A program made the translations under genes and the position numbers. Positions 45,545-60,895 of a stretch of DNA of 64,000 bases are shown here, piece after piece. The notes below the pieces were generated by a model. That model had not been told where the DNA came from and searched no databases. It saw only the letters and a list, made by a program, of their open reading frames with translations. The stretch spans positions 57,326 through 121,325 of the forward strand of contig JAVZBY010000003.1 in assembly GCA_038874655.1 (NCBI GenBank), given 5' to 3'. This DNA is from Candidatus Woesearchaeota archaeon (GTDB lineage Archaea; Nanobdellota; Nanobdellia; Woesearchaeales; GW2011-AR15). Position 1 is the stretch's first letter, and every line of letters begins with the position of its first letter.

Positions 45545-47212
45545 TCATAATTCATCAAATAACTTAATTGCTTTATCTTTTATTACTAATAAGAAAGGTG
45601 CCAATTTTGGGCCTTTTTCTTTGCCTAATAAAACCAAATATGCAGCTTTAAATAATTCTTGTGGCTCAATATTTACCTCATCTCTTGCAATAGTATAAAA
45701 TTCATTAAATAAAGTTTGTTCTGTCCATTTGCCATGCTTTAATCTTTGAGCAATTAACTTTAAAGCTTGTTTTTGCTTATCTGTTAATTTTTCTTTATTC
45801 TCATCTAAAAGTTTCTCTTGCAATTTGAATTTATATTGTTCATCTGCAAATTCATTTACCCATTTTCTTGCAAACTTTAGCCTATCTTTTACATAATTAA
45901 TTTCTTCTTTTGTCGCATCTTCATATATATGGCCAGATTCCTTTAATTTTTCAATAATGAGATCATCATTTTCAAATAATTGAACCATAACAGATGCATG
46001 TATCAAAGATATTTGTGGTGGACATCTTTCTGGAATTTTTCCAACATGACTTAACTCATAAATTCTTTTTTGTTTTATTGCTTCTTTTTCATCTACTTTT
46101 TCTAAACCAAAATATATTCTTTCTGCTTTATCATATCTCTCATATAAAAGTATTAAATCATTAGTTCCATATGGATCAAAATCTATAACTGCATTAGGCC
46201 TAGTTCTTATTAACAAATATCTTAACATTTTAGCAGGTGCAAAATTAATGCTCTCTGCAAAACCAATTCCTCTTCCTTTAGAAGTGGACATCTTTTTTCC
46301 ACCTACTGTAAAGAACTCATAACCAGGACCTTCATTATAGCCATTGCTTGGATATGGCGGTGGGTAATTAAAAACATCAACAGATATTCTACAAGCAGCT
46401 GTTCTTGAACCACCTTTAGTAAAATGATCTTTTCCTGCTGTTTCAACTATAACTCCTTTAGATGGCCATTTTGCTGCCCATTCAACTTTCCATGGAAATT
46501 TACCATTTCCATTATAGGGGCTAATCCACCCTTTATAGCCACAGCCTGATGCCCAAGCCACAACACCATCTTTGCATTCAAAATAAAGCAATTCTTTTTT
46601 AGAATTCCATTCTAATGCAATTGTAGTTGCTATTTTTCCACAATTTGGACATCTAACATTAAAAGGTAATTTATTTGCTGCTGCAACTTCTTCACCATAT
46701 AAATCTGCAAAAATCTTTTGAATTTTTTCTGCATTATCCAATGCAATTTTTATTGTTCTATTAAAAGTGCCTTTTTCATATTCTTGGCCTGTGCTTTCTA
46801 ATTCTGCCTCAATTCCAAAATCTGGAAACAAATTTGTGCATTGTTTAAAATAATAGTCCCCATAACTCTCATATCCCTGCATTGGACTTGGAATATATCT
46901 AAATGGAATACCCATATATTTTTCATATTCTTTTTTATCCAAATAAGAGGGAATTTTATCCATAGGATCCATATCATCTGAACTTAATACAAATCTAGCA
47001 TTTTTTCCCTTGCTTCTTAATGCTTTTGCAATAGCATCATGGATAATCCAACCTCTTCCAGAACCAATATGAATTATTCCTGAAGGTGTTTTTTCATCAT
47101 AAACAAAATAGCCATTTTTATCTACTAATTTTTTCAACTCGGGATTATTTTCAACCCTTTCAATAACTTCATCTGCAATTTGGTCTGCCCAGTGTTTTAC
47201 ATCTTCGCTCAT
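45545..47212 (-). CDS. lysS: Lysine--tRNA ligase, class I
   Basis: HWAD, PSGIIHIG, GKDH, KMSTSKG and KGPKL motifs. Confidence 0.95.
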   Translation of the reverse strand: MSEDVKHWADQIADEVIERVENNPELKKLVDKNGYFVYDEKTPSGIIHIGSGRGWIIHDAIAKALRSKGKNARFVLSSDDMDPMDKIPSYLDKKEYEKYMGIPFRYIPSPMQGYESYGDYYFKQCTNLFPDFGIEAELESTGQEYEKGTFNRTIKIALDNAEKIQKIFADLYGEEVAAANKLPFNVRCPNCGKIATTIALEWNSKKELLYFECKDGVVAWASGCGYKGWISPYNGNGKFPWKVEWAAKWPSKGVIVETAGKDHFTKGGSRTAACRISVDVFNYPPPYPSNGYNEGPGYEFFTVGGKKMSTSKGRGIGFAESINFAPAKMLRYLLIRTRPNAVIDFDPYGTNDLILLYERYDKAERIYFGLEKVDEKEAIKQKRIYELSHVGKIPERCPPQISLIHASVMVQLFENDDLIIEKLKESGHIYEDATKEEINYVKDRLKFARKWVNEFADEQYKFKLQEKLLDENKEKLTDKQKQALKLIAQRLKHGKWTEQTLFNEFYTIARDEVNIEPQELFKAAYLVLLGKEKGPKLAPFLLVIKDKAIKLFDEL

Positions 47213-47825: not shown

Positions 47826-49010
47826 TCAATTAATAACCTTTTCAATAATACTAACTGCCTCATCAACATTTTCTTTACTAAAAATTATAGGTGGTAATAA
47901 TCTCAAAATATTAGACAATGTTGGAATTACAATTAATCCATTATCCTGCAGTTTCTTTGTGTATTCTGTATTTTTTGTTTTTAATTCGATTGCTATCATC
48001 AATCCCTTTCCTCTAACTTCTCTTATTACAGATTTATTTAAATTTTTTAATTTATCCAAAAAATAATTTCCTACCTCTTCAGCATTTTTTAATAAATTAT
48101 TTTTTTCAATATAATCTAAAACAGCAATTCCTGCTGCGCTTATCAATGGATTTCCGCCAAAGGTATTTGTATGACAACCTGGATATAATTTTTCAGAAAC
48201 TTTATTATTAATTAAAACAGCACCAGCAGGCAAGCCTCCTGAAATGCCTTTTGCCAAACACATTATATCTGGTTTAATTCCAAAATGCTCAATAGCAAAT
48301 AATTTTCCTGTTCTTCCAAAACCTGTTTGAATCTCATCTACAATTAATAAAATATTTTTTTCATCGCAAATTTTCCTAACTTCTTTAAAGAAAGTATCAC
48401 TTGGCAATCTAATTCCTCCTTCTCCTTGTATTGGCTCCAATATTATTGCTGCAGTTTCCTCAGAAATAATTGATTTTAAACTTTCAATATCATCATAACT
48501 AAAATGATTTACATGTTGTAATAGAGGCAAAAATGGCTCATTATACTTAGGCATTGTTTTTGTTAAGCTTAAAGCTCCAATTGTTTTTCCATGATAGCCC
48601 ATTTTTGCAGCTAAAATTTCTTTCTTTCCAGTAAACAAACGAGCAAATTTGATTGCTGCTTCAACTGCCTCTGCTCCGGAATTACAAAAAAAAACTTTAT
48701 CTAAACCTGCTTTTTCACATAACTTCTTTGAGAAAATTGCTCTTTTAGAGTTCATATAACTCCCATGCAAGTTTGTTATTAAATCTAATTGCTCAATTAT
48801 AGCTTCTTTAACTGCCTTATTATTATGGCCTAAAACATTGACACCCATATTAGAAAAACAATCTAAATATTTTTTTCCATTATTATCATATAAATAAACA
48901 CCCTCTCCTTTTTCAATAAACAAACCTCTGTTTCCATATGTTGGTGCAACATAAGTATTATGCATATTTGCTAATTCTTCATAATCAAAATTATTTTTAT
49001 TGAAACTCAT
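47826..49010 (-). CDS. lysJ: [LysW]-aminoadipate semialdehyde transaminase (class III PLP aminotransferase)
   Basis: NSGAEA.E, EPIQGEGG, DEIQTG.GRTG and LAKG motifs; operon context. Confidence 0.88.
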   Translation of the reverse strand: MSFNKNNFDYEELANMHNTYVAPTYGNRGLFIEKGEGVYLYDNNGKKYLDCFSNMGVNVLGHNNKAVKEAIIEQLDLITNLHGSYMNSKRAIFSKKLCEKAGLDKVFFCNSGAEAVEAAIKFARLFTGKKEILAAKMGYHGKTIGALSLTKTMPKYNEPFLPLLQHVNHFSYDDIESLKSIISEETAAIILEPIQGEGGIRLPSDTFFKEVRKICDEKNILLIVDEIQTGFGRTGKLFAIEHFGIKPDIMCLAKGISGGLPAGAVLINNKVSEKLYPGCHTNTFGGNPLISAAGIAVLDYIEKNNLLKNAEEVGNYFLDKLKNLNKSVIREVRGKGLMIAIELKTKNTEYTKKLQDNGLIVIPTLSNILRLLPPIIFSKENVDEAVSIIEKVIN

Positions 49011-49094: not shown

Positions 49095-49919
49095 CTAATT
49101 TTTTGTGATAATTGTTCCATTTTCATTTAAAGCATTCATCAATGGACTTTCAATTCTGCCGTCTGCCAAAATAATCTTTAAATTTGGATTAATATACTCT
49201 GACTCAAACAACTTTTTTATAGCATAAATTTTTCTTTTCATTCTTCCCTCAACTTTCTGTTCCATTATTTCCAAATCACTGAAATTTAATTTTTTAATTA
49301 GTGTATTTTCATCATTTTTATCCTCTAAAAAACCTCTTGCTTCTATAAAACTTATAATTAAATCTGCATTTAATTTTTCATTCAATAATGAAACAATATC
49401 ATCATTTTCTGTATTTATTGCAAAATTATTTTCATCTAATATAGGAATGCTAATTATAGGAATATACTTATTATCAAGCAGCAAAATCAATAAATTAAGA
49501 TTAATTGATTTTGGTTTTCCTGAAAAATCTCTGACAATTTTTATTTTACCATTATCATTTATTCTAATTCCTTGATTTCTCTGCCCAACAACTAAAGAAC
49601 CATCTATCCCAGATAATCCAATAGCATTCAACCCATTTTGTAAAAATTTTTCAACAATTCTTTTATTTTTTAAACCGCTGTAAGACATTAAAATTAAATC
49701 AATAGCTTCTTCATCACTATACACACTTTCAAAGCCCTTTATTGATTTCAAGACCTTTTTTTCAACATTCAATTTTTTTGCTAACTCATCTCTCAAATAA
49801 TTTGCGCCATGAACAACAACGATTTTTTCATTATTGTTTTTTTCTAAAAAAATTTTCAAGTCCTTTGCAATCCCATTAATATTTATTTCTTTACCACCGC
49901 CTATTTTTATTATAATCAT
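49095..49919 (-). CDS. lysZ: [LysW]-aminoadipate kinase
   Basis: IKIGG, VVHGA, GLSGIDG, FSGKP and GRMKRK motifs. Confidence 0.9.
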   Translation of the reverse strand: MIIIKIGGGKEININGIAKDLKIFLEKNNNEKIVVVHGANYLRDELAKKLNVEKKVLKSIKGFESVYSDEEAIDLILMSYSGLKNKRIVEKFLQNGLNAIGLSGIDGSLVVGQRNQGIRINDNGKIKIVRDFSGKPKSINLNLLILLLDNKYIPIISIPILDENNFAINTENDDIVSLLNEKLNADLIISFIEARGFLEDKNDENTLIKKLNFSDLEIMEQKVEGRMKRKIYAIKKLFESEYINPNLKIILADGRIESPLMNALNENGTIITKN

Positions 49920-49959: not shown

Positions 49960-50655
49960 CTAAAAAACATATAATCCTAAATTTAGTTTTTTCCAATTTT
50001 CTTTATTTTCGTTTTCAAATTCTTGTGAGCAAATTATTAATCTTTCATTTTTGTTAGTTTCATTATTTTTTTTATTTTCATTAATCTCTTTTTTCATTCT
50101 TAAACAAAAATAATCCTCATCTGTTGTAAAATAATTATTGACAAAAACCTTTTCTTTATTAGCAATAATTATATTCAATGCTTTTATGTAATCAGTTCTT
50201 TTTTTTATTATAGAAATAGCTTTTTCCATTGCATTTTTCATACTTTCTTTTGAATCTTTTTTATCAAACCTCTTAATAAAATTGAATATTTTTTCTGCTC
50301 CTATTCTACCATGCTCTTTTATTTTAACTCCTCTTAATTCACCATTAAATATAAAAACATAATTTTCATCATAAAAAGGCATATTATTTTCAATTCTAAT
50401 GTCTTTATCCTCAAAAGCGCTTCTTGCATGTGCAATTAAAATTTTTGTTTTTTTATTTTTAGTAAAACTAAAATCCTCAGTCCATATTGGATTTATATTT
50501 TTGTAATAATTAAAATTATTTTTTTCATCTAAATAAGCCAACCCCCATCCATGTCCTTGATTTTCTTTGCTATTTTTACAAATAACTGCAAATTTTTCTA
50601 AATAAGGATTAATATCAAAAACTTCATTTGATTTAATATATAGCAATCTGCACAT
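49960..50655 (-). CDS. Class II glutamine amidotransferase-like Ntn hydrolase (YafJ/EgtC/Dug3-like)
   Basis: N-terminal MCRLL nucleophile; GWG, AHARSA, ENNMPF and FNG motifs; single domain. Confidence 0.88.
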   Translation of the reverse strand: MCRLLYIKSNEVFDINPYLEKFAVICKNSKENQGHGWGLAYLDEKNNFNYYKNINPIWTEDFSFTKNKKTKILIAHARSAFEDKDIRIENNMPFYDENYVFIFNGELRGVKIKEHGRIGAEKIFNFIKRFDKKDSKESMKNAMEKAISIIKKRTDYIKALNIIIANKEKVFVNNYFTTDEDYFCLRMKKEINENKKNNETNKNERLIICSQEFENENKENWKKLNLGLYVF

Positions 50656-50686: not shown

Positions 50687-51724
50687 TTAAATTGGATGCA
50701 ATCCACTAAATTCTAATCCTAAGGTTTCATCAAACCCAAACATTAAATTCATGCATTGAACTGCTTGTCCTGCTGAACCCTTCATTAAATTATCTATTGC
50801 ACTTATGACAACTAATCTTTTTTTATCATTTTCATCTAATTCAAACCCAATATCACAATAATTTGTTCCCCACAATATTTTTGGCTCTGGATATCTATAA
50901 ATACCTTGCTTCTCTTTAACAAATCTTATAAATGGTTCATTTTGATATTCACTTCTGAAAATTTTCCAAATATCTTTTTCTTCCATTTCATTTTTCAAAT
51001 AAAGATGTGCTGTCATTAAAATTCCTCTCACAATTCCAATACTTGTTGCACTAAATCCAAAATAATTTGTTTTTAATTCTTGCATAATTTCTGCCATATG
51101 CCTATGTCCTGTTGGTTGATAACTTCTAACACAATCATTTCTCTCTGGATGATGGCTTGCTTCACTTGGCTTACTTCCACCTTGAGAGCTGCCTGCTTTT
51201 ACTTCAACAATTGTTCTTGATTCTTCAACAACATTATTTTTATAAAGAGGGTATAAACCTAAAATTGTTGCAGTAGAATTACAGCCGGCACATGCAACAT
51301 AATCTGCTTTTTTTATTTCTTCTCTATGTAATTCTGGAAGCCCATAAACAAATTTTTCAATTAACTCAGGATTTGGATGTTCCATACCATACCATTTAAC
51401 ATAGTCATCTTTATTTTTTAATCTGTAATCACTTCCTTTATCAATAATCTTTTTTGCTTTACTCATAAAATACTTCATTTTTTGACTGCTTAATCCATGT
51501 GGCAATCCTAAAAATAAAACATCAACCTCTTCCAGATTATTCATACTTGTAAATTTTAAGCTTGTTTTTTTCCTCAAATTAGGATGTATTTGATGCACAA
51601 ATTTACCAATATTACTTTCAGAGGTTATTTGCTTAACTTCAACATAAGGATGATTAAGCAATAATCTCAATACTTCGCCTCCTGTGTAGCCAGAAGCTCC
51701 TATAATTGAAGCTGTTATTTTCAT
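50687..51724 (-). CDS. lysY: [LysW]-aminoadipate-phosphate reductase (ArgC family)
   Basis: GASGYTGGE, YGLPEL, GCN.T and IDNLMKG.AGQA motifs. Confidence 0.92.
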   Translation of the reverse strand: MKITASIIGASGYTGGEVLRLLLNHPYVEVKQITSESNIGKFVHQIHPNLRKKTSLKFTSMNNLEEVDVLFLGLPHGLSSQKMKYFMSKAKKIIDKGSDYRLKNKDDYVKWYGMEHPNPELIEKFVYGLPELHREEIKKADYVACAGCNSTATILGLYPLYKNNVVEESRTIVEVKAGSSQGGSKPSEASHHPERNDCVRSYQPTGHRHMAEIMQELKTNYFGFSATSIGIVRGILMTAHLYLKNEMEEKDIWKIFRSEYQNEPFIRFVKEKQGIYRYPEPKILWGTNYCDIGFELDENDKKRLVVISAIDNLMKGSAGQAVQCMNLMFGFDETLGLEFSGLHPI

Positions 51725-52578
51725 TTTTTACCTCCTTGCTCCAAAACATAATCAACCATTAATTTTGGAATATTAACTCCTGTTGTTATAATTGAATTTC
51801 TAAACTCCATTGTATGATTTACTTCATTTACCATTAAACCATTTTTTGTCTCAAAAATATCTATTGCTAATAAACCACCTTTTTTATCTGTTATTGCATC
51901 TGCTGTTTTTTTACATAATTCATCAATCTCTTTTGTGATAGGACAATTTTCTGCTTTACCTCCTCTAGCTGTATTTGTAATCCAATGTTCAGAATTTCTA
52001 TAGATTGCTGCAATTGTTTTATTCCCTATTACAAAAGCTCTAATATCTCTCCCAGGTTTTTCAATATATTCTTGAATGTAAAAAATGGAATGATTATAGC
52101 CGCCTAATGTTGCTTTGTGTTCTATTATTGACTCTGCTTCTTCCCTTGATTTTACTTTAGCCATTAATCTACCCCATGAACCAATAACTGGTTTTAAAAC
52201 ACAAGGATATCCTAAAAAATCACATGCATTTAAAGCAGATTCTTCTGAAAAAGCCATAAAAACTTTAGGTGTTGGAATTTTATTATTTACTAAAATCTGA
52301 CTTGTAATATATTTATCACCACATCTCTCAGCAATAAAACTAGGATTAATTACTTTAACATTTTGTGCTTCAAATAATTTTGATATATATAATCCTCTGC
52401 TATAAGAAACGCTTCTTTCAAACAAAACATCAATATCATACTTTTTTTTTGATATGTCAAAAAATTCAATATTATCATCAATTATAATTAAATCAACATC
52501 TCTTTTTCTTAATTCATCTAACAAAAATTTTTCTTCTGCTCTTAATTTTGTCATCAAAAAACCTATTTTTAATTTCAT
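51721..52578 (-). CDS. lysX: Alpha-aminoadipate--LysW ligase (ATP-grasp)
   Basis: KPVIGSWGR, QEYI.KPGRDIR, WITNTARG and EVNHTMEFRNS motifs. Confidence 0.93.
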   Translation of the reverse strand: MKLKIGFLMTKLRAEEKFLLDELRKRDVDLIIIDDNIEFFDISKKKYDIDVLFERSVSYSRGLYISKLFEAQNVKVINPSFIAERCGDKYITSQILVNNKIPTPKVFMAFSEESALNACDFLGYPCVLKPVIGSWGRLMAKVKSREEAESIIEHKATLGGYNHSIFYIQEYIEKPGRDIRAFVIGNKTIAAIYRNSEHWITNTARGGKAENCPITKEIDELCKKTADAITDKKGGLLAIDIFETKNGLMVNEVNHTMEFRNSIITTGVNIPKLMVDYVLEQGGKK

Positions 52579-52613: not shown

Positions 52614-53648
52614 TTATTTTAAAAAATTAAGGACTTTTTCTCTTATTTTCTCAGCAACCTCTTTTGTTGTTTTATTGCCACCTAAATCATAAGTAGTATT
52701 ATTTTCCTTTATTGTTTCATAAACTGCTTTTTCAATTATTTCTGCATAATAAGTTTCATTAAGATATTCCAACATCATTTTTGCAGATAGGATTGCTGCA
52801 ATAGGATTTGCTTTATTCAAACCTGCATTTTTTGGATTACTACCATGTACTGGCTCAAATATCGCATTATTTTTTCCTATATTACCTGAATATGCAATTC
52901 CTAAGCCACCTACTAGCATAGAAGCCTCATCACTTAAGATATCACCAAATAAATTTGTTGTTATAATTATTTCAAATTGGCTTGGATTCTTTATTAATTG
53001 CATTGCACAAGCATCAACATGCATTTCATCCATTTGTATATTAAATTGATTGTATTTTGATTTATATTCATCATAAATCTCATAAGCAATTTTTCTAAAT
53101 AACCCACATGTCTCTCTCATTACATTTGCTTTATGCACTATAGTTATCTTTTTTCTATTTTGTTTTACTGCTAATTCAAAACCAAATCTTATAATTTTTT
53201 CACTTGCTTCTCTTGTAATAACTCTTTCTGTTATTGCTTTATTTCCATTATCTTCAATTCTTTCAATCCCAGAATAAAGATCTTCTGTATTTTCTCGAAC
53301 AATGACTAAATCAACATCTTGTCTAGAAATAGGATGCGGAATTGATCTACATGGTCTTACATTTGCATATAAATCAAATAATTTTCTTAATTTTATTATT
53401 GCAGAACTATAATTTTTAATATCTGGCGGTGTTGTTACTGCACCAAATAATGTTGCATTTGTATTTTTTATATTTTCAATTGTATCTTCAGGTAAATTAG
53501 TTCCTTTTTTTAAATATGTTTCATAACCAATCTCAGAAAAAACAAAATCAAATTTTAAAGGTAATGCATTTAAAACTAATAAAGCACTATCAATTACTTC
53601 TTTTCCAATTCCATCTCCAGGCATAACATTTATTTTGTAGGTTTTCAT
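52614..53648 (-). CDS. Homoisocitrate dehydrogenase (ICDH/IPMDH family)
   Basis: GDGIG.EV, RENTEDLY, HKANV, NLFGDILSD and EPVHGS motifs; lysine operon context. Confidence 0.85.
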   Translation of the reverse strand: MKTYKINVMPGDGIGKEVIDSALLVLNALPLKFDFVFSEIGYETYLKKGTNLPEDTIENIKNTNATLFGAVTTPPDIKNYSSAIIKLRKLFDLYANVRPCRSIPHPISRQDVDLVIVRENTEDLYSGIERIEDNGNKAITERVITREASEKIIRFGFELAVKQNRKKITIVHKANVMRETCGLFRKIAYEIYDEYKSKYNQFNIQMDEMHVDACAMQLIKNPSQFEIIITTNLFGDILSDEASMLVGGLGIAYSGNIGKNNAIFEPVHGSNPKNAGLNKANPIAAILSAKMMLEYLNETYYAEIIEKAVYETIKENNTTYDLGGNKTTKEVAEKIREKVLNFLK

Positions 53649-53680: not shown

Positions 53681-54193
53681 TTAATTATTTAGTTCTTCTA
53701 AATCATGCTCTTTTAAGTAATTAATAATGCCACCTGAATTTCTTATTTTTAAGATAAATTCTGGCATCTTCTTTGCTTCTATAACTATATTTTTTGTTAT
53801 GTTTTTTATTATTCCTTTTTCTAAATCAACTTCTAAAATGTCATTTTCATCTATTTTATCAGTATCACATTCCAAAATTGGCAATCCAATGTTTATAGCA
53901 TTTCTATAAAAAATTCTAGAAAACGATTTTGCTAAAACAACAACATTTTTCCCTTTTAATGCGACAGCAGCATGCTCTCTTGATGAGCCGCATCCAAAGT
54001 TATAACCAGCAACAACAAAATCATTTTCATTTGCATTTTTAAAATCAGGCCTTACTTCACAAAAAACATTTTTTGCTAATTCCTTAGGGTCAATTGTAAT
54101 ATTATATCTGGCAGGTATAATCTCATCTGTATTCATATTATCTGAAAATTTCCATACTTTTCCTTTAATTAAATTATTTTGAGTTTTATCCAT
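53681..54193 (-). CDS. Homoaconitase small subunit (LeuD/HacB family)
   Basis: NTDEIIP, NFGCGSSREHA and IFYRNAIN.G motifs. Confidence 0.88.
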   Translation of the reverse strand: MDKTQNNLIKGKVWKFSDNMNTDEIIPARYNITIDPKELAKNVFCEVRPDFKNANENDFVVAGYNFGCGSSREHAAVALKGKNVVVLAKSFSRIFYRNAINIGLPILECDTDKIDENDILEVDLEKGIIKNITKNIVIEAKKMPEFILKIRNSGGIINYLKEHDLEELNN

Positions 54194-54210: not shown

Positions 54211-55488
54211 TTAATTCAAATACTTTCTAGGATCTGTAATTTTGCCTTCTATTGCTGTTGCAGCTGCAGAAGCAGGACTTCCTAAATAAATTTCTGCTTC
54301 TGGGCTTCCCATTCTTCCTATAAAATTTCTGTTCATTGTTGTAAATGCTCTTTCTTTTGGTGCTAACAAACCACCATGTCTGCCAATACATGCACCACAT
54401 CCTGGATTTGTTATTGTGCAACCAGCATCAATGAAAATTTTTATTAAACCATTTTTCAATGCTTTTTCATATATAGTATTGCTAGCTGGTGTTATTATAG
54501 TTCTAGTAAATTTACTCACCTTTCTTCCTTTTAAAATAGAAGCTGCTATTTCTAAATCTTCATATCTCGCATTTGTACATGTTCCTATAAAAACTTCATC
54601 TATTTCTAAACCTTCAACCTCTTTTAACTTTTTTACATTATCAACATCTGGATGACAAGAAACCATCGGCTCTATTTCATTCACATTAATATCTATAATC
54701 TTCTCATAAATAGGATTCTTTGGATGAATCTCAATCAAATCTTTTTCACTTATAGTATCTTTAAATCTCTCTAATAATTTAGTTTCATTTTTTAAAAAGT
54801 CAATTGTTTTTTTATCAGAACTTATTAAACCACATTTTGCTCCAATTTCTGTACTCATATTAGAAAAAACGATTCTTTCATGCATTGGCAAATTTTTAAT
54901 AAATTCTCCAGAAAACTCAACGCTTTTATATGTTGCTCCATCCATTCCTAATAATCCAGCAATATAAATCATAACATCTTTTGCATAAACACCTTTTTTT
55001 AAATTACCTGTCATATTAATCAAAATTGTTTCTGGAACCTTAAACCATAATTTTCCTGTAATCCAAGCAACTGCTATTTCTGTTGAGCCATAACCAGATG
55101 AAAAACATCCTAATGCACCATAAGTATTAGAATGTGAATCTGCGCCAATCACAATATTTCCAGGAATAATAAATCCCTCTTCAATCATTACTTGATGGCA
55201 AACACCTTTTTTAAAAAAATTCTCTATTTTCTGCTCTTTAATAAAATCAGTAATCTTTTTTTGTGCTTCTGCTGCTAATAAATTAGGTGCTGGATATGCA
55301 TGATCAAAATGAATAACAATCTTATTTTTATCTTTAAGTGGTTTCCCGACTTCTCTAAAAGATTTTATTGCTAATGGCGTAGTATTATCATGGCTCATTA
55401 TAAAATCAACATCAGCAATAACTAAATCTCCTGCTTTTACTTCTTTATTTAATTTTCTTGAAAAAATTTCCTCTACTAATGTTCCCAT
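54211..55488 (-). CDS. Homoaconitase large subunit (LeuC/HacA family)
   Basis: DH, GVCHQ, DSH, GTCTNAR, CGAC and NRNF.GRMG motifs. Confidence 0.9.
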   Translation of the reverse strand: MGTLVEEIFSRKLNKEVKAGDLVIADVDFIMSHDNTTPLAIKSFREVGKPLKDKNKIVIHFDHAYPAPNLLAAEAQKKITDFIKEQKIENFFKKGVCHQVMIEEGFIIPGNIVIGADSHSNTYGALGCFSSGYGSTEIAVAWITGKLWFKVPETILINMTGNLKKGVYAKDVMIYIAGLLGMDGATYKSVEFSGEFIKNLPMHERIVFSNMSTEIGAKCGLISSDKKTIDFLKNETKLLERFKDTISEKDLIEIHPKNPIYEKIIDINVNEIEPMVSCHPDVDNVKKLKEVEGLEIDEVFIGTCTNARYEDLEIAASILKGRKVSKFTRTIITPASNTIYEKALKNGLIKIFIDAGCTITNPGCGACIGRHGGLLAPKERAFTTMNRNFIGRMGSPEAEIYLGSPASAAATAIEGKITDPRKYLN

Positions 55489-56888
55489 TAAAATTCACCT
55501 TTATTCTCATTAAGATAACCATTATGTTTTTTCAATACTATTTTTGTATTGGTTTGTTTTATTCCTTTTACTAATCTTAATTCTTCAATTAAGTTGTTTA
55601 ATTCTGCTGTACTATTTACTTTAACATATATAGAAATATCATGCTCTCCTGTTATTTCAAAAACACTTTTTACGTGTTTAAAATTTTTTAAAATTCTAAC
55701 AACTGAGCTAGTATAAACTTCTGATTCAACAGAAATTAAAATTAAAGCATTTATTCCTTCTGGAATTATATTTGTATTTTTTCCAATAACCTTTTCTGCA
55801 ATTTCTATAATATCTATATCATGTAATATCTTTCTTTCATCTCCTACTTTCTTTATTTCATAAACAATTTTCTCTAATTGCTCATCATTAACCTGAATAT
55901 CATATTCACTTAATTTTGATTTTACAGCTGCTTTTCCAGTGTATTTATCAACAATAATTTTTCTTTCTCTACCTATTAAACTTGGTTCAAAAGGCTCATA
56001 TGTTTTAGGATTTTTCAAAACACCATTAGTATGAGAAAATGCATTTATTCCTGTAATTGGCTTATTAGGTGCAATAAAAAAACCTGATATTTTTTCTAAA
56101 TAATTACTAGCTTCAATCAAATATTTTTCATTAAACTTATTTAATCCATAAAGAACTTTAAAAGTCATAATAACTTCTGCTAAATCAGGAATTCCTGTTC
56201 TTTCACCCATACCATTTATTGTGGTATGTATGCAATCTGCTCCTGCTTCAATTGCCATTATTGCATTTGCTAATGCTAAACCAAAATCATTATGACAATG
56301 CACATCTAAACCACATGGCAATAATTTTTCTTTTAATCTTTTTACATTTTGATAAAAAACATTTGGCAGCATTATTCCTAGTGTATCTGCATAACTTATT
56401 CTGTCTGCTCCTGCTTTTATTGCTGTATTACATGCTTCAACCAAAAAATCAAAATCAGTTCTTGTGGCATCTTCTGGTGTAAATCTTACTTTTAAACCAA
56501 GAGATTTTGCATATGAAACATTTTCTTTTATTATTTCCAAAGCTTCTCTTTCAGTTTTCTTTACTTTTGTTTCTAAATGTATTTTTGAAGTAGGATAAAA
56601 AACAACAATTCTTTTTGCTCCTGTTTTCTTTGCATTATCAATATTTTGTTTTATTGCTAATGAATGTGCAACAATCTCTGCCTTTAAATTCAATTTTACA
56701 ATTTCTGAAATTGCCTCAAATATTTTTGGTGAAACACTAGGATCACCAGCCTCAATCATATCAACTCCAATTTTATCTAAATATTTTGCAATCTCTATTT
56801 TCTCATCGACACTAAAATTTACATAGGGTGTTTGTTCTCCTTCTCTTAATGTTGTATCCAATATTTTTACATCTATTTGATTTATCAT
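55488..56888 (-). CDS. Homocitrate synthase with C-terminal Lrp/AsnC (RAM) regulatory domain
   Basis: DTTLREGEQ, HCHND and GERTG motifs; tail FEITGEHDI...TNTKIVL typical of RAM. Confidence 0.88.
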   Translation of the reverse strand: MINQIDVKILDTTLREGEQTPYVNFSVDEKIEIAKYLDKIGVDMIEAGDPSVSPKIFEAISEIVKLNLKAEIVAHSLAIKQNIDNAKKTGAKRIVVFYPTSKIHLETKVKKTEREALEIIKENVSYAKSLGLKVRFTPEDATRTDFDFLVEACNTAIKAGADRISYADTLGIMLPNVFYQNVKRLKEKLLPCGLDVHCHNDFGLALANAIMAIEAGADCIHTTINGMGERTGIPDLAEVIMTFKVLYGLNKFNEKYLIEASNYLEKISGFFIAPNKPITGINAFSHTNGVLKNPKTYEPFEPSLIGRERKIIVDKYTGKAAVKSKLSEYDIQVNDEQLEKIVYEIKKVGDERKILHDIDIIEIAEKVIGKNTNIIPEGINALILISVESEVYTSSVVRILKNFKHVKSVFEITGEHDISIYVKVNSTAELNNLIEELRLVKGIKQTNTKIVLKKHNGYLNENKGEF

Positions 56889-56933
56889 TTTTTAAAAAAA
56901 TTTTTTGAAAATTTATTGAATTACTTTAGTTAT

Positions 56934-57095
56934 TTATTGACCCCAGTCTTCTGCTTCTTGAGGAGCCAATTCTAAAACAACAGGATTTAATTTCCTAACC
57001 TCTAATTCAGAACCACAATCTTGGCAATTTAAAATTTCGCCAATTTCAACATTTTCAGCTTTAATTTCTGCACCACATTCTGGACATTCTGCCAT
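56934..57095 (-). CDS. lysW: LysW amino-group carrier protein ending in Gln (not in ORF track)
   Basis: MAECPECGAE...CQDCGSELEV...LAPQEAEDWGQ*, 53 aa; GGAGG SD upstream. Confidence 0.95.
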   Translation of the reverse strand: MAECPECGAEIKAENVEIGEILNCQDCGSELEVRKLNPVVLELAPQEAEDWGQ

Positions 57096-58207: not shown

Positions 58208-60022
58208 TTATTTTTTAAAATTTTCTTTCTTAATAAAATCTAATTTTATATGCAATTCTTTTAATTGTTTTTCATCAACCTCACTAGGACTACCTACCAT
58301 AAGTTCTTCTGCATTTTTGTTTTTTGGAAATGCAGTTATTTCTCTAATGTTTGGCTCTCCTCTTAAAATCATAACTAATCTTTCAATACCAGGAGCAAAA
58401 CCACAATGTGGTGGTGCGCCATATTTAAATGCTTTAATCATATGCCCAAATTTCTTATCTACTACTTCTTTTCCATAACCAGCTATTTCAAAAGCTTTAT
58501 ACATAATTTCAGGAACATTATTTCTAACTGCTCCTGAGCTTAATTCAACTCCATTACAAACAATATCATATTGATAAGCTAAAATATCCAAAGGATCTTT
58601 TGTTTTTAATGCTTCTAAACCTCCTTGAGGCATTGAAAAAGGATTATGACAAAAATCAATTTTTCCTTCTTCTTCATTAAATTCATACATTGGAAAATCA
58701 ACTACCCATAACCAAGCCAAAATATTTTCATCAATCAAATTTAATCTTTTTCCTAATTCTAATCTAACTTGAGATAATGACTTACATACAATTTTTTCTT
58801 TTTCTGCTGCAAAAAATATTATATCATTTTCTTCTGCTTTCATCTCATTTAATATTTTACTTGTTATTTCATCACCTAAATATTTTGTAATAGGTGATTT
58901 TATTTCTCCATCTTTTAAAGTAATATAAGCCAATCCTTTTAAACCATGACTTTTTGCTAATTCTGTTAGTTCCTCAATATCCTTTCTTGTAAAAAGATTT
59001 GCTGCTTTTTTTGCATTTATTGCTCTAACAACACCTTTGTTTTTAATTACATTAGAAAAAACCTCAAAATTTGTATTTTTTACTATTTGTGTTATGTCTT
59101 GTATTTCTAATCCAAACCTTATATCAGGTTTATCTGTTCCATATTTTAACATTACATCTTTATACTTTAATCTTGGAAATGGTTGATGTAATATCTTTTT
59201 ATTAGTGAATTTTTTTGTTAATTCTATAAATAAAGGTTCCATTAAATCAAAAAACTCATCTTGAGTTAAAAAACTAGTTTCACAATCTAATTGATAAAAT
59301 TCACCTGGGCTTCTATCTGCTCTTGCATCTTCATCTCTCATACATGGAGCAATTTGAAAATATTTATCAAAACCAGCTACCATTAATAATTGCTTATATT
59401 GCTGTGGCGCCTGTGGTAAAGCATAAAACTTTCCTGGATGTAATCTTGACGGAACTAAAAAATCCCTTGCTCCTTCTGGAGAGCTTACAGTTAATATTGG
59501 TGTTTCTATTTCTGTAAAACCATGTGAAAACATCCAATCTCTTATAAATTTAACCACATGACTTCTAAAAATAATATTTTCTTGTAATCTTTTTCTTCTT
59601 AAATCTAAAAATCTGTATTTTAATCTTATTTCTTCAGAAACATCGATTCTATCATCAATCTCAAAAGGAGGTGTATCTGCTTTATTTAATATTTCAACAT
59701 TATCAACTAAAACTTCTATTTCTCCTGTTTCTAAATTTGGATTTTCTAAACCTTCACCTCTATATCTTACTTTTCCTTTCGCATGAATCACAAACTCTCT
59801 TCTTAAAGTTTCTGCAATTTTATGACTATCTTTATCATGACTAGGATCAAAAACTAATTGTGTAATTCCATATCTATCTCTTAAATCAATGAATATCTTT
59901 CCACCATGATCTCTATAAGAATTTACCCAACCTGACAATTTGACTTCTTTTCCAATATCTGATTTTCTTAATTCTCCACAAGTATGTGTTCTTAATTTTG
60001 TATTCATAAACAACAACCTCAC
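58208..60022 (-). CDS. aspS: Aspartate--tRNA ligase, bacterial-type with GAD insert (start probably 60007)
   Basis: RTHTCGEL, RDHGG, EGARDFLVPSR, QAPQQYKQLLM and GAPPH motifs. Confidence 0.95.
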   Translation of the reverse strand: MRLLFMNTKLRTHTCGELRKSDIGKEVKLSGWVNSYRDHGGKIFIDLRDRYGITQLVFDPSHDKDSHKIAETLRREFVIHAKGKVRYRGEGLENPNLETGEIEVLVDNVEILNKADTPPFEIDDRIDVSEEIRLKYRFLDLRRKRLQENIIFRSHVVKFIRDWMFSHGFTEIETPILTVSSPEGARDFLVPSRLHPGKFYALPQAPQQYKQLLMVAGFDKYFQIAPCMRDEDARADRSPGEFYQLDCETSFLTQDEFFDLMEPLFIELTKKFTNKKILHQPFPRLKYKDVMLKYGTDKPDIRFGLEIQDITQIVKNTNFEVFSNVIKNKGVVRAINAKKAANLFTRKDIEELTELAKSHGLKGLAYITLKDGEIKSPITKYLGDEITSKILNEMKAEENDIIFFAAEKEKIVCKSLSQVRLELGKRLNLIDENILAWLWVVDFPMYEFNEEEGKIDFCHNPFSMPQGGLEALKTKDPLDILAYQYDIVCNGVELSSGAVRNNVPEIMYKAFEIAGYGKEVVDKKFGHMIKAFKYGAPPHCGFAPGIERLVMILRGEPNIREITAFPKNKNAEELMVGSPSEVDEKQLKELHIKLDFIKKENFKK

Positions 60023-60102
60023 AACCTAAATTGATAAATAATAAATTGAAATACAAAAAGTTTTAAAATATGTGAGAATATATAAAGGTTTTTTTGGAAC
60101 AT

Positions 60103-60140
60103 ACACTGGACACTGGACATTTTCAAGTAAGATTTATAAA
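60103..60140 (+). promoter_or_regulatory. ACACTGGACACTGGACATTTT motif plus TATA box of the cas operon
   Basis: Tandem 7-mer; TTTATAAA at 60133-60140; matches 38309-38329. Confidence 0.7.
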
Positions 60141-60165
60141 TAATATTATTATTTTTAAATCATTA

Positions 60166-60894
60166 ATGAGATTAATTCTCAAATTAAAATCTAGAAAGGA
60201 CAGTATTTATGATACAAAATATTACCATAAGTTAAGAGGTTTTATTTATAATTTGTTAAAAAATTCTATATTTGATATTCATGACAAAAGAAAATATAAG
60301 TTTTTTTGTTTTTCAAATATTTTTCCAATTGAAGAAATCAAAACTGATAAAATTAGGAATTTATTAATTTCTAGTCCAAATAAAGATTTTATTTACTGGC
60401 TAAAAGGAAAAATTTCTGAAGAGAAAATTATAGAGATTGGTGAAATGCAATTTGAATTAGTTGATTTAAAAATTATAAATCAAGAATTGTATAATCGTTT
60501 AATTACTGGAACACCTATAGTAGTAAGAATTCCAAAAAATAGATATAAAGAATATAATATTATTAGTAATAGACCTTACGAATATTGGAAAACAGAATAT
60601 GAAACAAAGCCATTTATAAAACAGTTAACAGAGAACTTAATTAAAAAGTATAATTTATATTATAATAAAGAAATGGATTATACAAAAATATTTGAATTTT
60701 TTAATTTTAAAAAAGAGGTTTGTGTTCATGTAATTGAAAATGGAAAAGAACATCCTGTTGTTGGAACATTATGGGAGTTTGAATTTAGCCACTTAAATGA
60801 CATACAAAGAAAAATACTAGAATTTGGCATTGAAACAGGATTTGGAGAATTAAATAGCTCAGGATTTGGTTTTATAAATCCAATAAAAAAATAA
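60166..60894 (+). CDS. cas6: CRISPR-associated endoribonuclease Cas6
   Basis: YKFFCFS, ISSP, TPIVV and G-rich loop GFGELNSSGFG; ATG 60166 preferred over 60094. Confidence 0.93.
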   Translation: MRLILKLKSRKDSIYDTKYYHKLRGFIYNLLKNSIFDIHDKRKYKFFCFSNIFPIEEIKTDKIRNLLISSPNKDFIYWLKGKISEEKIIEIGEMQFELVDLKIINQELYNRLITGTPIVVRIPKNRYKEYNIISNRPYEYWKTEYETKPFIKQLTENLIKKYNLYYNKEMDYTKIFEFFNFKKEVCVHVIENGKEHPVVGTLWEFEFSHLNDIQRKILEFGIETGFGELNSSGFGFINPIKK

Positions 60895-60895
60895 A

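What the first reader, a model, noticed from the sequence alone, without database searches (positions are those of the whole stretch)
56934..57095. LysW ends in EDWGQ, so the carrier residue is Gln and must be deamidated
Seen: minus strand reads GAA GAC TGG GGT CAA TAA. Established: LysX ligates aminoadipate to the gamma-carboxyl of the terminal Glu of EDWGE, and Gln has no free gamma-carboxyl. Inference: LysW is made as an inactive pro-carrier and matured Gln-to-Glu by the co-encoded glutaminase-fold protein (or loaded by transamidation). The same enzyme could perform both maturation and product release, adding a post-translational control point.
Basis: partly seen in the sequence, partly recalled or inferred. 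Interest (0 to 1): 0.88.

Follow-up and report, generated by a model that had tools for sequence, protein, structure and literature searches.

The report
Gln-ended LysW carrier with Ntn hydrolase
The small carrier protein of this archaeon's lysine pathway ends in glutamine instead of the glutamate it needs, and across many microbes this form occurs only where an uncharacterised cysteine hydrolase replaces the usual release enzyme, so that hydrolase probably both activates the carrier and releases lysine.

Summary
Window 57095..56934 (-) encodes a 53-aa LysW ending EDWGQ-TAA. The CAA codon is unchanged in contigs of three runs, one a variant strain from another study.

It is a recurrent form, not a lone SNP. 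Ten of 114 DWG-tailed representatives end in Q and none in anything but E or Q. Seven of 119 LysW tails in an unselected metagenome scan end in Q. At least 117 species genomes carry it.

Of 117 Q-loci, 66 hold an ortholog of the window's Cys2 "class II glutamine amidotransferase" (49960-50655). A further 41 have it elsewhere in the genome, and none has an M20 LysK nearby. Among unselected E-loci, 11 have the hydrolase and 23 have M20. No locus has both.

The window's genome has no M20 peptidase and no DapA. The hydrolase model resembles EgtC (TM 0.77). A complex model puts LysW residues 44-53 at Cys2/Arg78/Asn104-Gly105 (0.69, best control 0.00).

Best reading (about 0.6): the hydrolase replaces LysK and also deamidates LysW-Gln, as Dop does for Pup. 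No biochemistry exists. The proposed "control point" is unsupported.

The parts
56934..57095 (-). lysW: a 53-aa zinc-ribbon amino-group carrier protein ending EDWGQ instead of EDWGE
   Evidence: sequence. PF21344, E 2.6e-19. TIGR01206, 85.2 bits against a cut-off of 53.2.
56937..56939 (-). CAA codon for the terminal Gln53, followed by TAA at 56934-56936
   Evidence: Unchanged in contigs of runs X1, X2 and X3.
55488..56888 (-). Homocitrate synthase with a C-terminal Lrp/AsnC-type ligand-binding domain
   Evidence: HMGL-like 2.8e-77, HCS_D2 2.8e-20, AsnC_trans_reg 1.5e-11.
54211..55488 (-). Homoaconitase large subunit
   Evidence: Aconitase 1.1e-98.
53681..54193 (-). Homoaconitase small subunit
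   Evidence: Aconitase_C 1.2e-17.
52614..53648 (-). Homoisocitrate dehydrogenase
   Evidence: Iso_dh 1.7e-103.
51721..52578 (-). LysX, the ATP-grasp ligase that loads aminoadipate on LysW
   Evidence: TIGR02144 LysX_arch, 344 bits against a cut-off of 275.6. RimK and LysX_preATP_grasp.
50687..51724 (-). LysY, the [LysW]-aminoadipyl-phosphate reductase
   Evidence: Semialdhyde_dh and Semialdhyde_dhC_1.
49960..50655 (-). Cys2 Ntn hydrolase, annotated elsewhere as 'class II glutamine amidotransferase'. Proposed LysW-gamma-Lys hydrolase (LysK substitute) and LysW-Gln deamidase.
   Evidence: GATase_4, 33.2 bits against a cut-off of 23. M1 C2 R3 H76 R78 S79 N104 G105 invariant in 61 orthologs; pLDDT 95.3; EgtC is the top PDB match at TM 0.77; complex with the LysW tail; co-occurrence.
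49095..49919 (-). LysZ, the [LysW]-aminoadipate kinase
   Evidence: NF010659, 209.9 bits (cut-off 223; best match, just below the cut-off).
47826..49010 (-). LysJ, the [LysW]-aminoadipate semialdehyde transaminase
   Evidence: TIGR00707 argD subfamily, 448 bits; LysJ models 381 and 351 bits (below their equivalog cut-offs).

Best explanation
This is a variant of the LysW (amino-group carrier protein) lysine pathway. The metallopeptidase LysK is replaced by a small N-terminal-cysteine (Ntn) amidohydrolase of the class-II glutaminase fold.

Proposed function (inferred): the hydrolase cuts gamma-glutamyl amide bonds at the C-terminus of LysW. Its main job is to hydrolyse LysW-gamma-lysine, which releases lysine and regenerates LysW-Glu. 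A terminal Gln is the simplest gamma-glutamyl amide, with NH3 as leaving group instead of lysine. The same active site would therefore turn newly made LysW-Gln into LysW-Glu. LysX can then load that form with ATP.

Consequence (inferred): in lineages with this hydrolase the one-base change GAA/GAG to CAA/CAG at the last codon is tolerated and has occurred repeatedly. In lineages with LysK it is not seen.

What is shown: the sequence, the gene clusters, the co-occurrence, the fold, and a predicted docking of the LysW tail at the catalytic cysteine.

What is inferred: both enzyme activities, and the idea that the Q form is a near-neutral pro-form rather than a regulatory device.
For: 1. Q is linked to the hydrolase.
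Of these, 117 are true LysW and 3 are chance matches.
- 66 of the 117 have the hydrolase in the same locus, and 0 of 117 have M20 there.
- Of the 51 loci without a hydrolase in view, 50 genomes were searched with profile A1. 41 have a strong ortholog and 9 do not. L168 was not searched.
- In the unselected E/Q metagenome scan, 119 of 120 stretches are true LysW. The 7 Q-loci split as 3 with hydrolase, 0 with M20, 4 too short. The 112 E-loci split as 11 with hydrolase, 23 with M20, 0 with both, 78 with neither in view.

2. The hydrolase stands in for LysK.
- It sits inside the operon: between LysY and LysZ in 63 of 86 loci, and after LysJ in 8.
- It never occurs in the same locus as M20.
- The window's genome (97% complete) has no Peptidase_M20 hit better than E 0.11.
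- G007, G010 and the single-contig G016 have the hydrolase-type cluster and no M20.
- No DapA was found, and the lysA match is far below its cut-off. The aminoadipate route is therefore the only lysine route found, and its only LysW ends in Q.

3. The chemistry fits.
- 86 of 87 orthologous ORFs start MC.
- C2, R78 and N104-G105 are invariant. They align with Cys, Arg and Asn-Gly of the genome's own GlmS glutaminase domain.
- The model has pLDDT 95.3. The best PDB matches are EgtC Ntn hydrolase entries at TM 0.77.

4. The complex model supports binding.
- Score 0.69, best control 0.00. The mark was reached by 58 of 80 solved complexes and 2 of 110 mismatched pairs; these counts hold only roughly because my own alignments were used.
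- The three runs agree in at least 95% of contacts, and the partner's pLDDT is at least 81.
- The interface is LysW residues 30 and 44-53 against hydrolase residues 1-2, 78-81, 92, 103-113, 118-120, 122-123 and 153-155.

5. Only E or Q occurs at the last position: 104 E, 10 Q and 0 other among 114 DWG-type tails.

6. E and Q tails are interspersed on the hydrolase tree. It needs at least 12 changes, 4 of them forced by starred branches.

7. LysX is retained in 107 of 112 Q-loci. No column of LysX, LysY, LysZ or the hydrolase separates Q from E clusters.

8. There is a precedent. Pup with a C-terminal Gln is deamidated by Dop, which is also the depupylase (PMC8223512, passages read).
Against: - No biochemical data exist for any member of this hydrolase family. 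Sources name it only 'class II glutamine amidotransferase' or 'hypothetical protein'.
- The hydrolase is present in more E-type than Q-type clusters, so its presence does not by itself indicate deamidation.
- Nine Q-type genomes showed no hydrolase. Most have lysW on short contigs. One, L123, is an orphan lysW-Q with neither lysX nor the hydrolase.
- G014, G015 and G039 have the hydrolase in the cluster and also M20 genes on other contigs. A LysK elsewhere is not excluded there.
- Related genomes are not independent, so the counts overstate the statistical weight.
- The complex score is the model's own confidence, and an enzyme-carrier pair is a hard case for it.
- Only contigs, not raw reads, back the CAA codon.
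Confidence: 0.6

Rival explanations
1. Hitch-hiking or non-specific maturation. The hydrolase only replaces LysK. The terminal Gln is converted by another amidase or spontaneously. Its link with the hydrolase reflects shared descent of one cluster type rather than function.
For: Hydrolase-type clusters form one family that seems to spread between phyla. A trait arising in it would stay associated with it. The window comes from hot-spring metagenomes, where spontaneous deamidation is faster.
Against: The tail state changes at least 4 to 12 times on the hydrolase tree, so Q is not a single inherited event. No Q tail was seen beside M20, in 0 of 117 and 0 of 7 loci, although M20 clusters are twice as common among E tails. 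Many Q-type genomes belong to Gammaproteobacteria/Arenicellales, Acidobacteriota and Ignavibacteriota MAGs, not only thermophiles. The complex model places the tail at Cys2.
Confidence: 0.14
2. Transamidation. The Ntn cysteine attacks the Gln amide (or LysW-gamma-Lys) and forms a gamma-glutamyl thioester. It then passes the LysW acyl group directly to the amino group of aminoadipate, loading the carrier without ATP.
For: A thioester acyl-enzyme intermediate is part of class-II glutaminase chemistry (established knowledge, recalled). Other Ntn enzymes such as gamma-glutamyltranspeptidase are listed in the Ntn superfamily (PMC3249071, passage read). The Gln amide is a pre-activated acyl donor.
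Against: LysX is kept in 107 of 112 Q-loci and in all 7 metagenome Q-loci. The window's LysX scores above the equivalog cut-off. E-type and Q-type clusters show no distinguishing column in LysX or the hydrolase.
Confidence: 0.08
3. The Gln form is used as it is. Aminoadipate is attached elsewhere, for example to the alpha-carboxylate as RimK does on S6, and the hydrolase cleaves that bond.
For: LysX belongs to the RimK family of alpha-L-glutamate ligases (TIGR00768, 287.9 bits).
Against: Closely related clusters switch between E and Q without any matching change in LysX. The terminal residue is only ever E or Q, which points to the side-chain carbonyl as the functional group. The fold is that of gamma-amide hydrolases.
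Confidence: 0.06
4. Artefact or decaying gene: an assembly error or a recent inactivating mutation in a dispensable pathway.
For: Most relatives have EDWGE, 10 of 12 LysW-bearing genomes. Same-genus genomes G002 and G003 show no LysW.
Against: The codon is kept in three runs, including a variant strain with 4 synonymous changes and 1 conservative change in lysW. All ten operon genes are intact. No alternative lysine route was found. Q tails were found in at least 117 species genomes.
Confidence: 0.02

Closest known systems
LysW/AmCP-mediated lysine biosynthesis of Thermus thermophilus, Sulfolobus and Thermococcus (LysW, LysX, LysZ, LysY, LysJ, LysK)
   Same: It has the same carrier fold and the same EDWG tail. 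The same LysX, LysZ, LysY and LysJ are present, preceded by homocitrate synthase, homoaconitase and homoisocitrate dehydrogenase. In T. kodakarensis aminoadipate is attached to the C-terminal Glu53 of LysW, and LysK is the hydrolase of the last step (PMC12998189, passages read).
   Different: The terminal residue is Gln, not Glu. No M20 LysK was found in the cluster or in the genome. A non-homologous Cys2 Ntn hydrolase sits in the operon instead.
Pup and Dop (pupylation in Actinobacteria)
   Same: A small protein is ligated through the side-chain carboxylate of its C-terminal Glu. In some lineages it is encoded with a C-terminal Gln. That Gln must be deamidated before ligation, and the enzyme that does so also cleaves the isopeptide product (PMC8223512, passages read). 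In both systems the E and Q forms coexist among related organisms.
   Different: Neither the carrier nor the enzyme is homologous to Pup or Dop. That Dop is a ligase-like enzyme and not an Ntn hydrolase is recalled, not tested here. The system here is a metabolic carrier, not a degradation tag. The resemblance is functional only.
EgtC, the ergothioneine-biosynthetic Ntn hydrolase (PDB 4ZFJ/4ZFK/4ZFL)
   Same: It is the best structural match (TM 0.77) and the best NCBIfam match. Both are about 230 aa, single-domain, with an N-terminal Cys. That EgtC cleaves a gamma-glutamyl amide bond is recalled. The PDB titles say only 'Ntn hydrolase ... with glutamine / with natural substrate'.
   Different: Identity is only 13-14%. 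The TIGR03442 score is 42 bits against a cut-off of 218, so it is not an EgtC. The genomic context is lysine biosynthesis, not ergothioneine. The proposed substrate is the C-terminus of a protein.

Membership tests
LysW / amino-group carrier protein (PF21344, TIGR01206) | Zinc-ribbon globular domain with two CxxC pairs, scoring above the curated cut-offs | tested here: met
   C4, C7, C24 and C27 are present. PF21344 scores 69 bits against 27. TIGR01206 scores 85.2 bits against 53.2. The four Cys are invariant in alignment A2.
LysW / amino-group carrier protein (PF21344, TIGR01206) | Acidic C-terminal tail ending EDWGE, whose terminal Glu carries the substrate | tested here: not met
   The tail is EDWGQ. 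E49, D50, W51 and G52 are invariant, but the last residue is Gln.
LysW / amino-group carrier protein (PF21344, TIGR01206) | Encoded with LysX, LysY, LysZ and LysJ | tested here: met
   All four lie in the same operon.
Class-II (Ntn) glutamine amidotransferase / GATase_4 (PF13230) | Cys directly after the initiator Met as N-terminal nucleophile | tested here: met
   The protein starts MCRLL. 86 of 87 orthologous ORFs start MC. C2 is invariant in 61 sequences.
Class-II (Ntn) glutamine amidotransferase / GATase_4 (PF13230) | Arg and Asn-Gly of the glutaminase site; Ntn sandwich fold | tested here: met
   R78 and N104-G105 are invariant. They align with HTR and HNG of the genome's own GlmS (hhalign probability is low at 14%, and only 92 columns align). 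PF13230 scores 33.2 bits against 23. Foldseek finds EgtC, PurF and GlmS glutaminase domains.
Class-II (Ntn) glutamine amidotransferase / GATase_4 (PF13230) | A fused or partner synthase domain that uses the ammonia | tested here: not met
   The protein is a single domain of 231 aa (about 211 aa in most orthologs). No synthase partner is conserved beside it. It therefore looks like a stand-alone hydrolase, as EgtC is.
EgtC (TIGR03442) | Score above the equivalog cut-off | tested here: not met
   42.1 bits against a cut-off of 218.65.
LysK (M20 [LysW]-lysine hydrolase) | Peptidase_M20 domain | tested here: not met
   The hydrolase has no M20 match. The genome's best PF01546 hit is E 0.11. Any equivalence with LysK is functional, by position and mutual exclusion only.
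Pup/Dop-type pro-form maturation | Enzymatic Gln-to-Glu conversion of the C-terminal residue before ligation | not testable with these tools
   This needs mass spectrometry or enzyme assays. Here there is only co-occurrence and a docking model.

The most novel reading that the evidence does not exclude
The Ntn hydrolase is a gamma-glutamyl transferase as well as a hydrolase. It would use the amide of the encoded Gln for the first loading, and the LysW-gamma-Lys bond for later rounds, as a ready-activated acyl donor. LysW would pass straight onto a new aminoadipate, so the carrier could cycle with little or no ATP spent at the LysX step. The Gln ending would then be an energy-saving 'pre-charged' carrier rather than a neutral pro-form.
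Probability: 0.08. Interest if true: 0.9.

Novelty: new variant of a known kind. Interest (0 to 1): 0.72.

Why it matters
The LysW pathway is the textbook case of a protein-borne protecting group in primary metabolism. Its accepted definition includes a terminal Glu and an M20 release enzyme.

- In the unselected sample, about a third of the clusters whose release enzyme is in view use a different, uncharacterised enzyme (11 + 3 of 37).
- About 6-9% of LysW genes encode a carrier that cannot work as translated.
- If the proposed dual activity holds, this is a second, independent origin of the Pup/Dop logic: an amidated pro-form matured by the same enzyme that later removes the cargo. It would be in biosynthesis rather than in protein tagging.
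- It would give a function to a family of more than 3000 sequence clusters now named only 'class II glutamine amidotransferase'.
- It would correct pathway calls that score lysine biosynthesis as incomplete when LysK is missing.
- It is directly testable. Named strains carry it: Stygiobacter electus 09-Me has lysW-Q with the hydrolase (L058), and Acanthopleuribacter pedis has a LysW ending EDWGQ.

Tried and rejected
- Sequencing error: rejected. Contigs of three runs keep the codon.
- Recent SNP: rejected. Q-ended homologs exist at 81% and 67% identity, and in at least 117 species genomes.
- A second, Glu-ended LysW in the genome: none found.
- LysK elsewhere in the genome: none found.
- DAP pathway as a back-up: DapA was not found. 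The lysA family matched only at 75 bits against a cut-off of 298, with an in-frame stop.
- A hydrolase or LysX specialised for Q clusters: no alignment column separates Q from E clusters. The largest frequency difference is 0.61, similar in all four families.
- Mapping the alpha-amino-binding Asp of classical glutaminases onto the hydrolase: hhalign stopped at column 109. The idea that invariant G119/A120 replace that Asp, making room for the LysW peptide chain, stays an untested inference built on a recalled motif.
- RNA evidence: no RNA holder was listed.
- Literature: 'EDWGQ' occurs in 0 papers. No listed paper joins LysW with deamidation, deamidase, Ntn hydrolase or EgtC; 15 of 291 two-term hits were listed and LysW occurs in none of them. 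No listed paper joins LysW with 'glutamine amidotransferase'. The single paper holding aminoadipate, LysW and amidotransferase is an unrelated review table. Subscription journals and supplements were not searchable, so prior description cannot be excluded.
- The listing of cluster members gave names for only 4 of the 10 Q-ended representatives.

Full report
**The observation**

The minus strand at 56951..56934 reads GAA GAC TGG GGT CAA TAA. The ORF 57095..56934 encodes a 53-aa protein with two CxxC pairs and the tail APQEAEDWGQ. It matches Pfam Zn_ribbon_LysW at E 2.6e-19. It matches NCBIfam lysW at 85.2 bits against a cut-off of 53.2. It is the only LysW found in the 1.26-Mb, 97%-complete genome.

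**The operon**

The genes downstream on the same strand are:
- homocitrate synthase, 56888-55488, with a C-terminal Lrp/AsnC ligand-binding domain
- homoaconitase large and small subunits, 55488-54211 and 54193-53681
- homoisocitrate dehydrogenase, 53648-52614
- LysX, 52578-51721
- LysY, 51724-50687
- a 231-aa GATase_4 protein starting MCRLL, 50655-49960
- LysZ, 49919-49095
- LysJ, 49010-47826

There is no LysK. The best Peptidase_M20 hit in the whole genome has E 0.11. DapA was not found, and lysA matched only far below its cut-off. This operon is therefore the only lysine route found.

**Is the CAA codon real?**

Only assembled contigs were available, not raw reads. A contig from X1 (possibly the source) spans the stretch without a difference. 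A contig from X3 (same study, another sample) covers 56739-56956 without a difference. A 231-nt contig from X2 (another study) differs at 9 positions, none of them in 56934-56939. Five of the nine fall inside lysW: four are synonymous and one is K35R. The Gln codon is thus kept in a diverged strain under purifying selection.

**How common is the Q ending?**

- Of the 10 nearest 90%-identity clusters, 3 end in EDWGQ: the query itself, P0002 at 81% identity and P0004 at 67%.
- Of the best 150 representatives at 50% identity, 114 have a DWG-type C-terminus. Of these, 102 end EDWGE, 1 DDWGE, 1 EDWAE and 10 EDWGQ. No terminal residue other than E or Q occurs.
- One Q form is the annotated LysW of Acanthopleuribacter pedis.
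Of those rows, 117 are real LysW genes and 3 are chance matches. The hosts include Gammaproteobacteria/Arenicellales, Acidobacteriota, Ignavibacteriota, Calditrichota, Gemmatimonadota, Planctomycetota, Methanosarcinales and candidate-phyla bacteria. Both CAA and CAG occur, with all three stop codons.
It gave 119 real tails, 112 E and 7 Q, so 5.9% Q.

**The co-occurrence test**

I searched the ORFs of all loci with the window's ten pathway proteins and with an M20 LysK taken from relative G013.

Q-loci from the genome scan (117):
- 66 hold an ortholog of the window's GATase_4 protein.
- 0 hold M20.
- The other 51 are mostly cut by the 8-kb locus edge.
- I searched 50 of those genomes with the hydrolase profile A1. 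41 have a strong ortholog (E 1e-54 or better) and 9 do not. L168 was not searched.
- Eight of the nine misses have lysW on contigs of 1.6-7.9 kb. The ninth, L123 in an Actinomycetes MAG, is an orphan lysW-Q without lysX.

Unselected metagenome sample:
- Q-loci: 3 with hydrolase, 0 with M20, 4 too short.
- E-loci: 11 with hydrolase, 23 with M20, 0 with both, 78 with neither in view (20 of these show LysY and LysZ).

Twelve LysW-bearing relatives of the window's genome:
- 7 have the hydrolase in the cluster. G000 and G015 have Q tails; in G015 both LysW copies end in Q. G007, G010, G014, G016 and G039 have E tails.
- 3 have M20 with the cluster (G009, G013, G012), all with E tails.
- G008 has M20 elsewhere, and the G018 cluster is cut.
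- G007, G010 and the single-contig G016 have no M20 at all.

Position of the hydrolase: between LysY and LysZ in 63 of 86 loci, and after LysJ in 8. The position after LysJ is where M20 lies in most M20-type loci.

**What the hydrolase is**

- 86 of 87 orthologous ORFs begin MC.
- In 61 aligned orthologs M1, C2, R3, Q33, G36, G38, W58, H76, R78, S79, P93, F103, N104, G105, G119, Y182 and S210 are invariant.
- Profile alignment to the genome's own GlmS pairs C2, HAR78 and FNG105 with the Cys, HTR and HNG of its glutaminase domain. The probability is low (14%) and only 92 columns align.
- The AlphaFold model is confident: pLDDT 95.3, pTM 0.92.
- Its best PDB matches are EgtC Ntn hydrolase entries at TM 0.77 and 13-14% identity, followed by stand-alone and fused class-II glutaminase domains.
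- By sequence, 3MDN and EgtC are the only solved relatives.
- It is not an EgtC: TIGR03442 scores 42 bits against a cut-off of 218.
- Public sources call the family 'class II glutamine amidotransferase', 'glutamine amidotransferase' or 'hypothetical protein'. There are 3107 clusters at E 1e-10 or better.

**Does it touch LysW?**

A complex prediction with alignments A1 and A2 scored 0.69 (median of three runs) against 0.00 for the best of three controls. The mark was reached by 58 of 80 solved complexes and 2 of 110 mismatched pairs. Those counts hold only roughly, because my own alignments were used. The runs agree in at least 95% of contacts, and the partner's pLDDT is at least 81.

The confident interface is LysW residue 30 and residues 44-53, that is the whole APQEAEDWGQ tail. 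On the hydrolase it is residues 1-2, 78-81, 92, 103-113, 118-120, 122-123 and 153-155, which are the invariant catalytic positions. Trp51 and Asp50 give the lowest-error contacts. The score is the model's own confidence, not a measurement. I know of no solved complex of this kind (recalled, not searched).

**Evolutionary pattern**

On a quick maximum-likelihood tree of 80 hydrolases (61 from Q clusters, 15 from E clusters, 4 unlabelled) the tail state needs at least 12 changes. Four of these are forced by well-supported branches. That is barely fewer than the shuffled mean of 13.9. Eight of the 87 ORFs were left out because they were cut or of odd length.

The Q rows come mostly from a Q-selected scan. 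The tree therefore shows repeated switching, not frequencies. No alignment column of LysX, LysY, LysZ or the hydrolase separates Q from E clusters. LysX is present in 107 of 112 called Q-loci.

**Interpretation**

LysX activates a side-chain carboxylate with ATP, and an amide cannot be activated that way. This is established knowledge of ATP-grasp ligases and of LysW, recalled. The attachment of aminoadipate to the C-terminal Glu53 of T. kodakarensis LysW is stated in PMC12998189 (passage read).

A Gln-ended LysW therefore needs conversion to Glu. The enzyme that always accompanies it has the fold and catalytic residues of enzymes that hydrolyse the gamma-amide of glutamine. It replaces LysK in position and in distribution.

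LysK's reaction, hydrolysis of LysW-gamma-Lys, and Gln deamidation are the same reaction with different leaving groups. The simplest account is one enzyme with two substrates. The Q ending would then be a tolerated, repeatedly arising pro-form in that background only.

This mirrors Pup and Dop. Pup is encoded with a C-terminal Gln in some Actinobacteria. Dop deamidates it and also removes Pup from its targets (PMC8223512, passages read).

I put this reading at about 0.6. The main rival is that the link is inherited context and the Gln is matured in some other way (0.14). Transamidation (0.08), use of the Gln form as it is (0.06) and artefact (0.02) follow. The remainder is left for mechanisms not thought of.

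**Limits**

- There is no biochemistry.
- Only contigs, not raw reads, back the codon.
- Both collection scans were truncated at 120 rows.
- Related genomes are not independent.
- M20 genes elsewhere in G014, G015 and G039 were not resolved.
- Nine Q genomes have no hydrolase found.
- Supplements and subscription journals were not searchable. The statement that this is not in print rests only.

Noticed in passing
window 55488-56888 (-): The homocitrate synthase carries a C-terminal Lrp/AsnC-type ligand-binding domain (AsnC_trans_reg, E 1.5e-11, residues 383-453). This may be a fused amino-acid-sensing regulatory domain.
   Followed up: no
window 45545-47212 (-) and 58208-60022 (-): A class I lysyl-tRNA synthetase lies just beyond the lysine operon. 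An aspartyl-tRNA synthetase with a GAD insertion lies upstream of lysW.
   Followed up: no
window 60094-64000 (+): This is a CRISPR-Cas gene set. It includes Cas6 (60094-60894), a 485-aa protein with no Pfam match (60896-62353), a DevR/Csa2 Cas7 (62678-63745) and a further ORF running off the window.
   Followed up: partly
L174 (G015:C236) and L177 (G008:C8): Two relatives carry two LysW genes and extra LysX copies in one cluster. In G015 both carriers end in Q (ECDWGQ and DEDWGQ) with a single hydrolase. In G008 both end in E. This may be a dual lysine/arginine carrier system.
   Followed up: no
L079, L114, L151, L121, L168: A divergent gammaproteobacterial LysW subgroup (tail APAVEEDWGQ, longer N-terminus) is missed by phmmer with the window's LysW. 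In L079, L114, L151 and L121 the hydrolase lies after LysJ rather than between LysY and LysZ; none is in view in L168.
   Followed up: partly
L123 (Actinomycetes MAG, G044): An orphan LysW-like gene ends DEDWGQ. No LysX lies within 7.7 kb and no hydrolase was found in the genome. It may belong to a different carrier-protein system.
   Followed up: partly
G018 (L178): A relative with LysW-E has no strong hydrolase ortholog and no M20 in a 95%-complete genome. Its cluster is cut at a contig end. Its release enzyme is unknown.
   Followed up: no
G004, G005, G006, G011, G012, G018: These genomes carry a second, distant GATase_4 paralog (26-35% identity, E 1e-8 to 1e-13). They lack the lysine-cluster type, and the paralog's function is unknown.
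   Followed up: no
window 39914-44195 (-): Two very large, Cys-rich, Asn-rich proteins of 795 and 645 aa have N-terminal hydrophobic segments. They are probably surface proteins.
   Followed up: no
G000:C1:84053-85102: A weak lysA-family match (75 bits against a cut-off of 298) has one in-frame TAA. It is probably another PLP decarboxylase or a broken gene.
   Followed up: no
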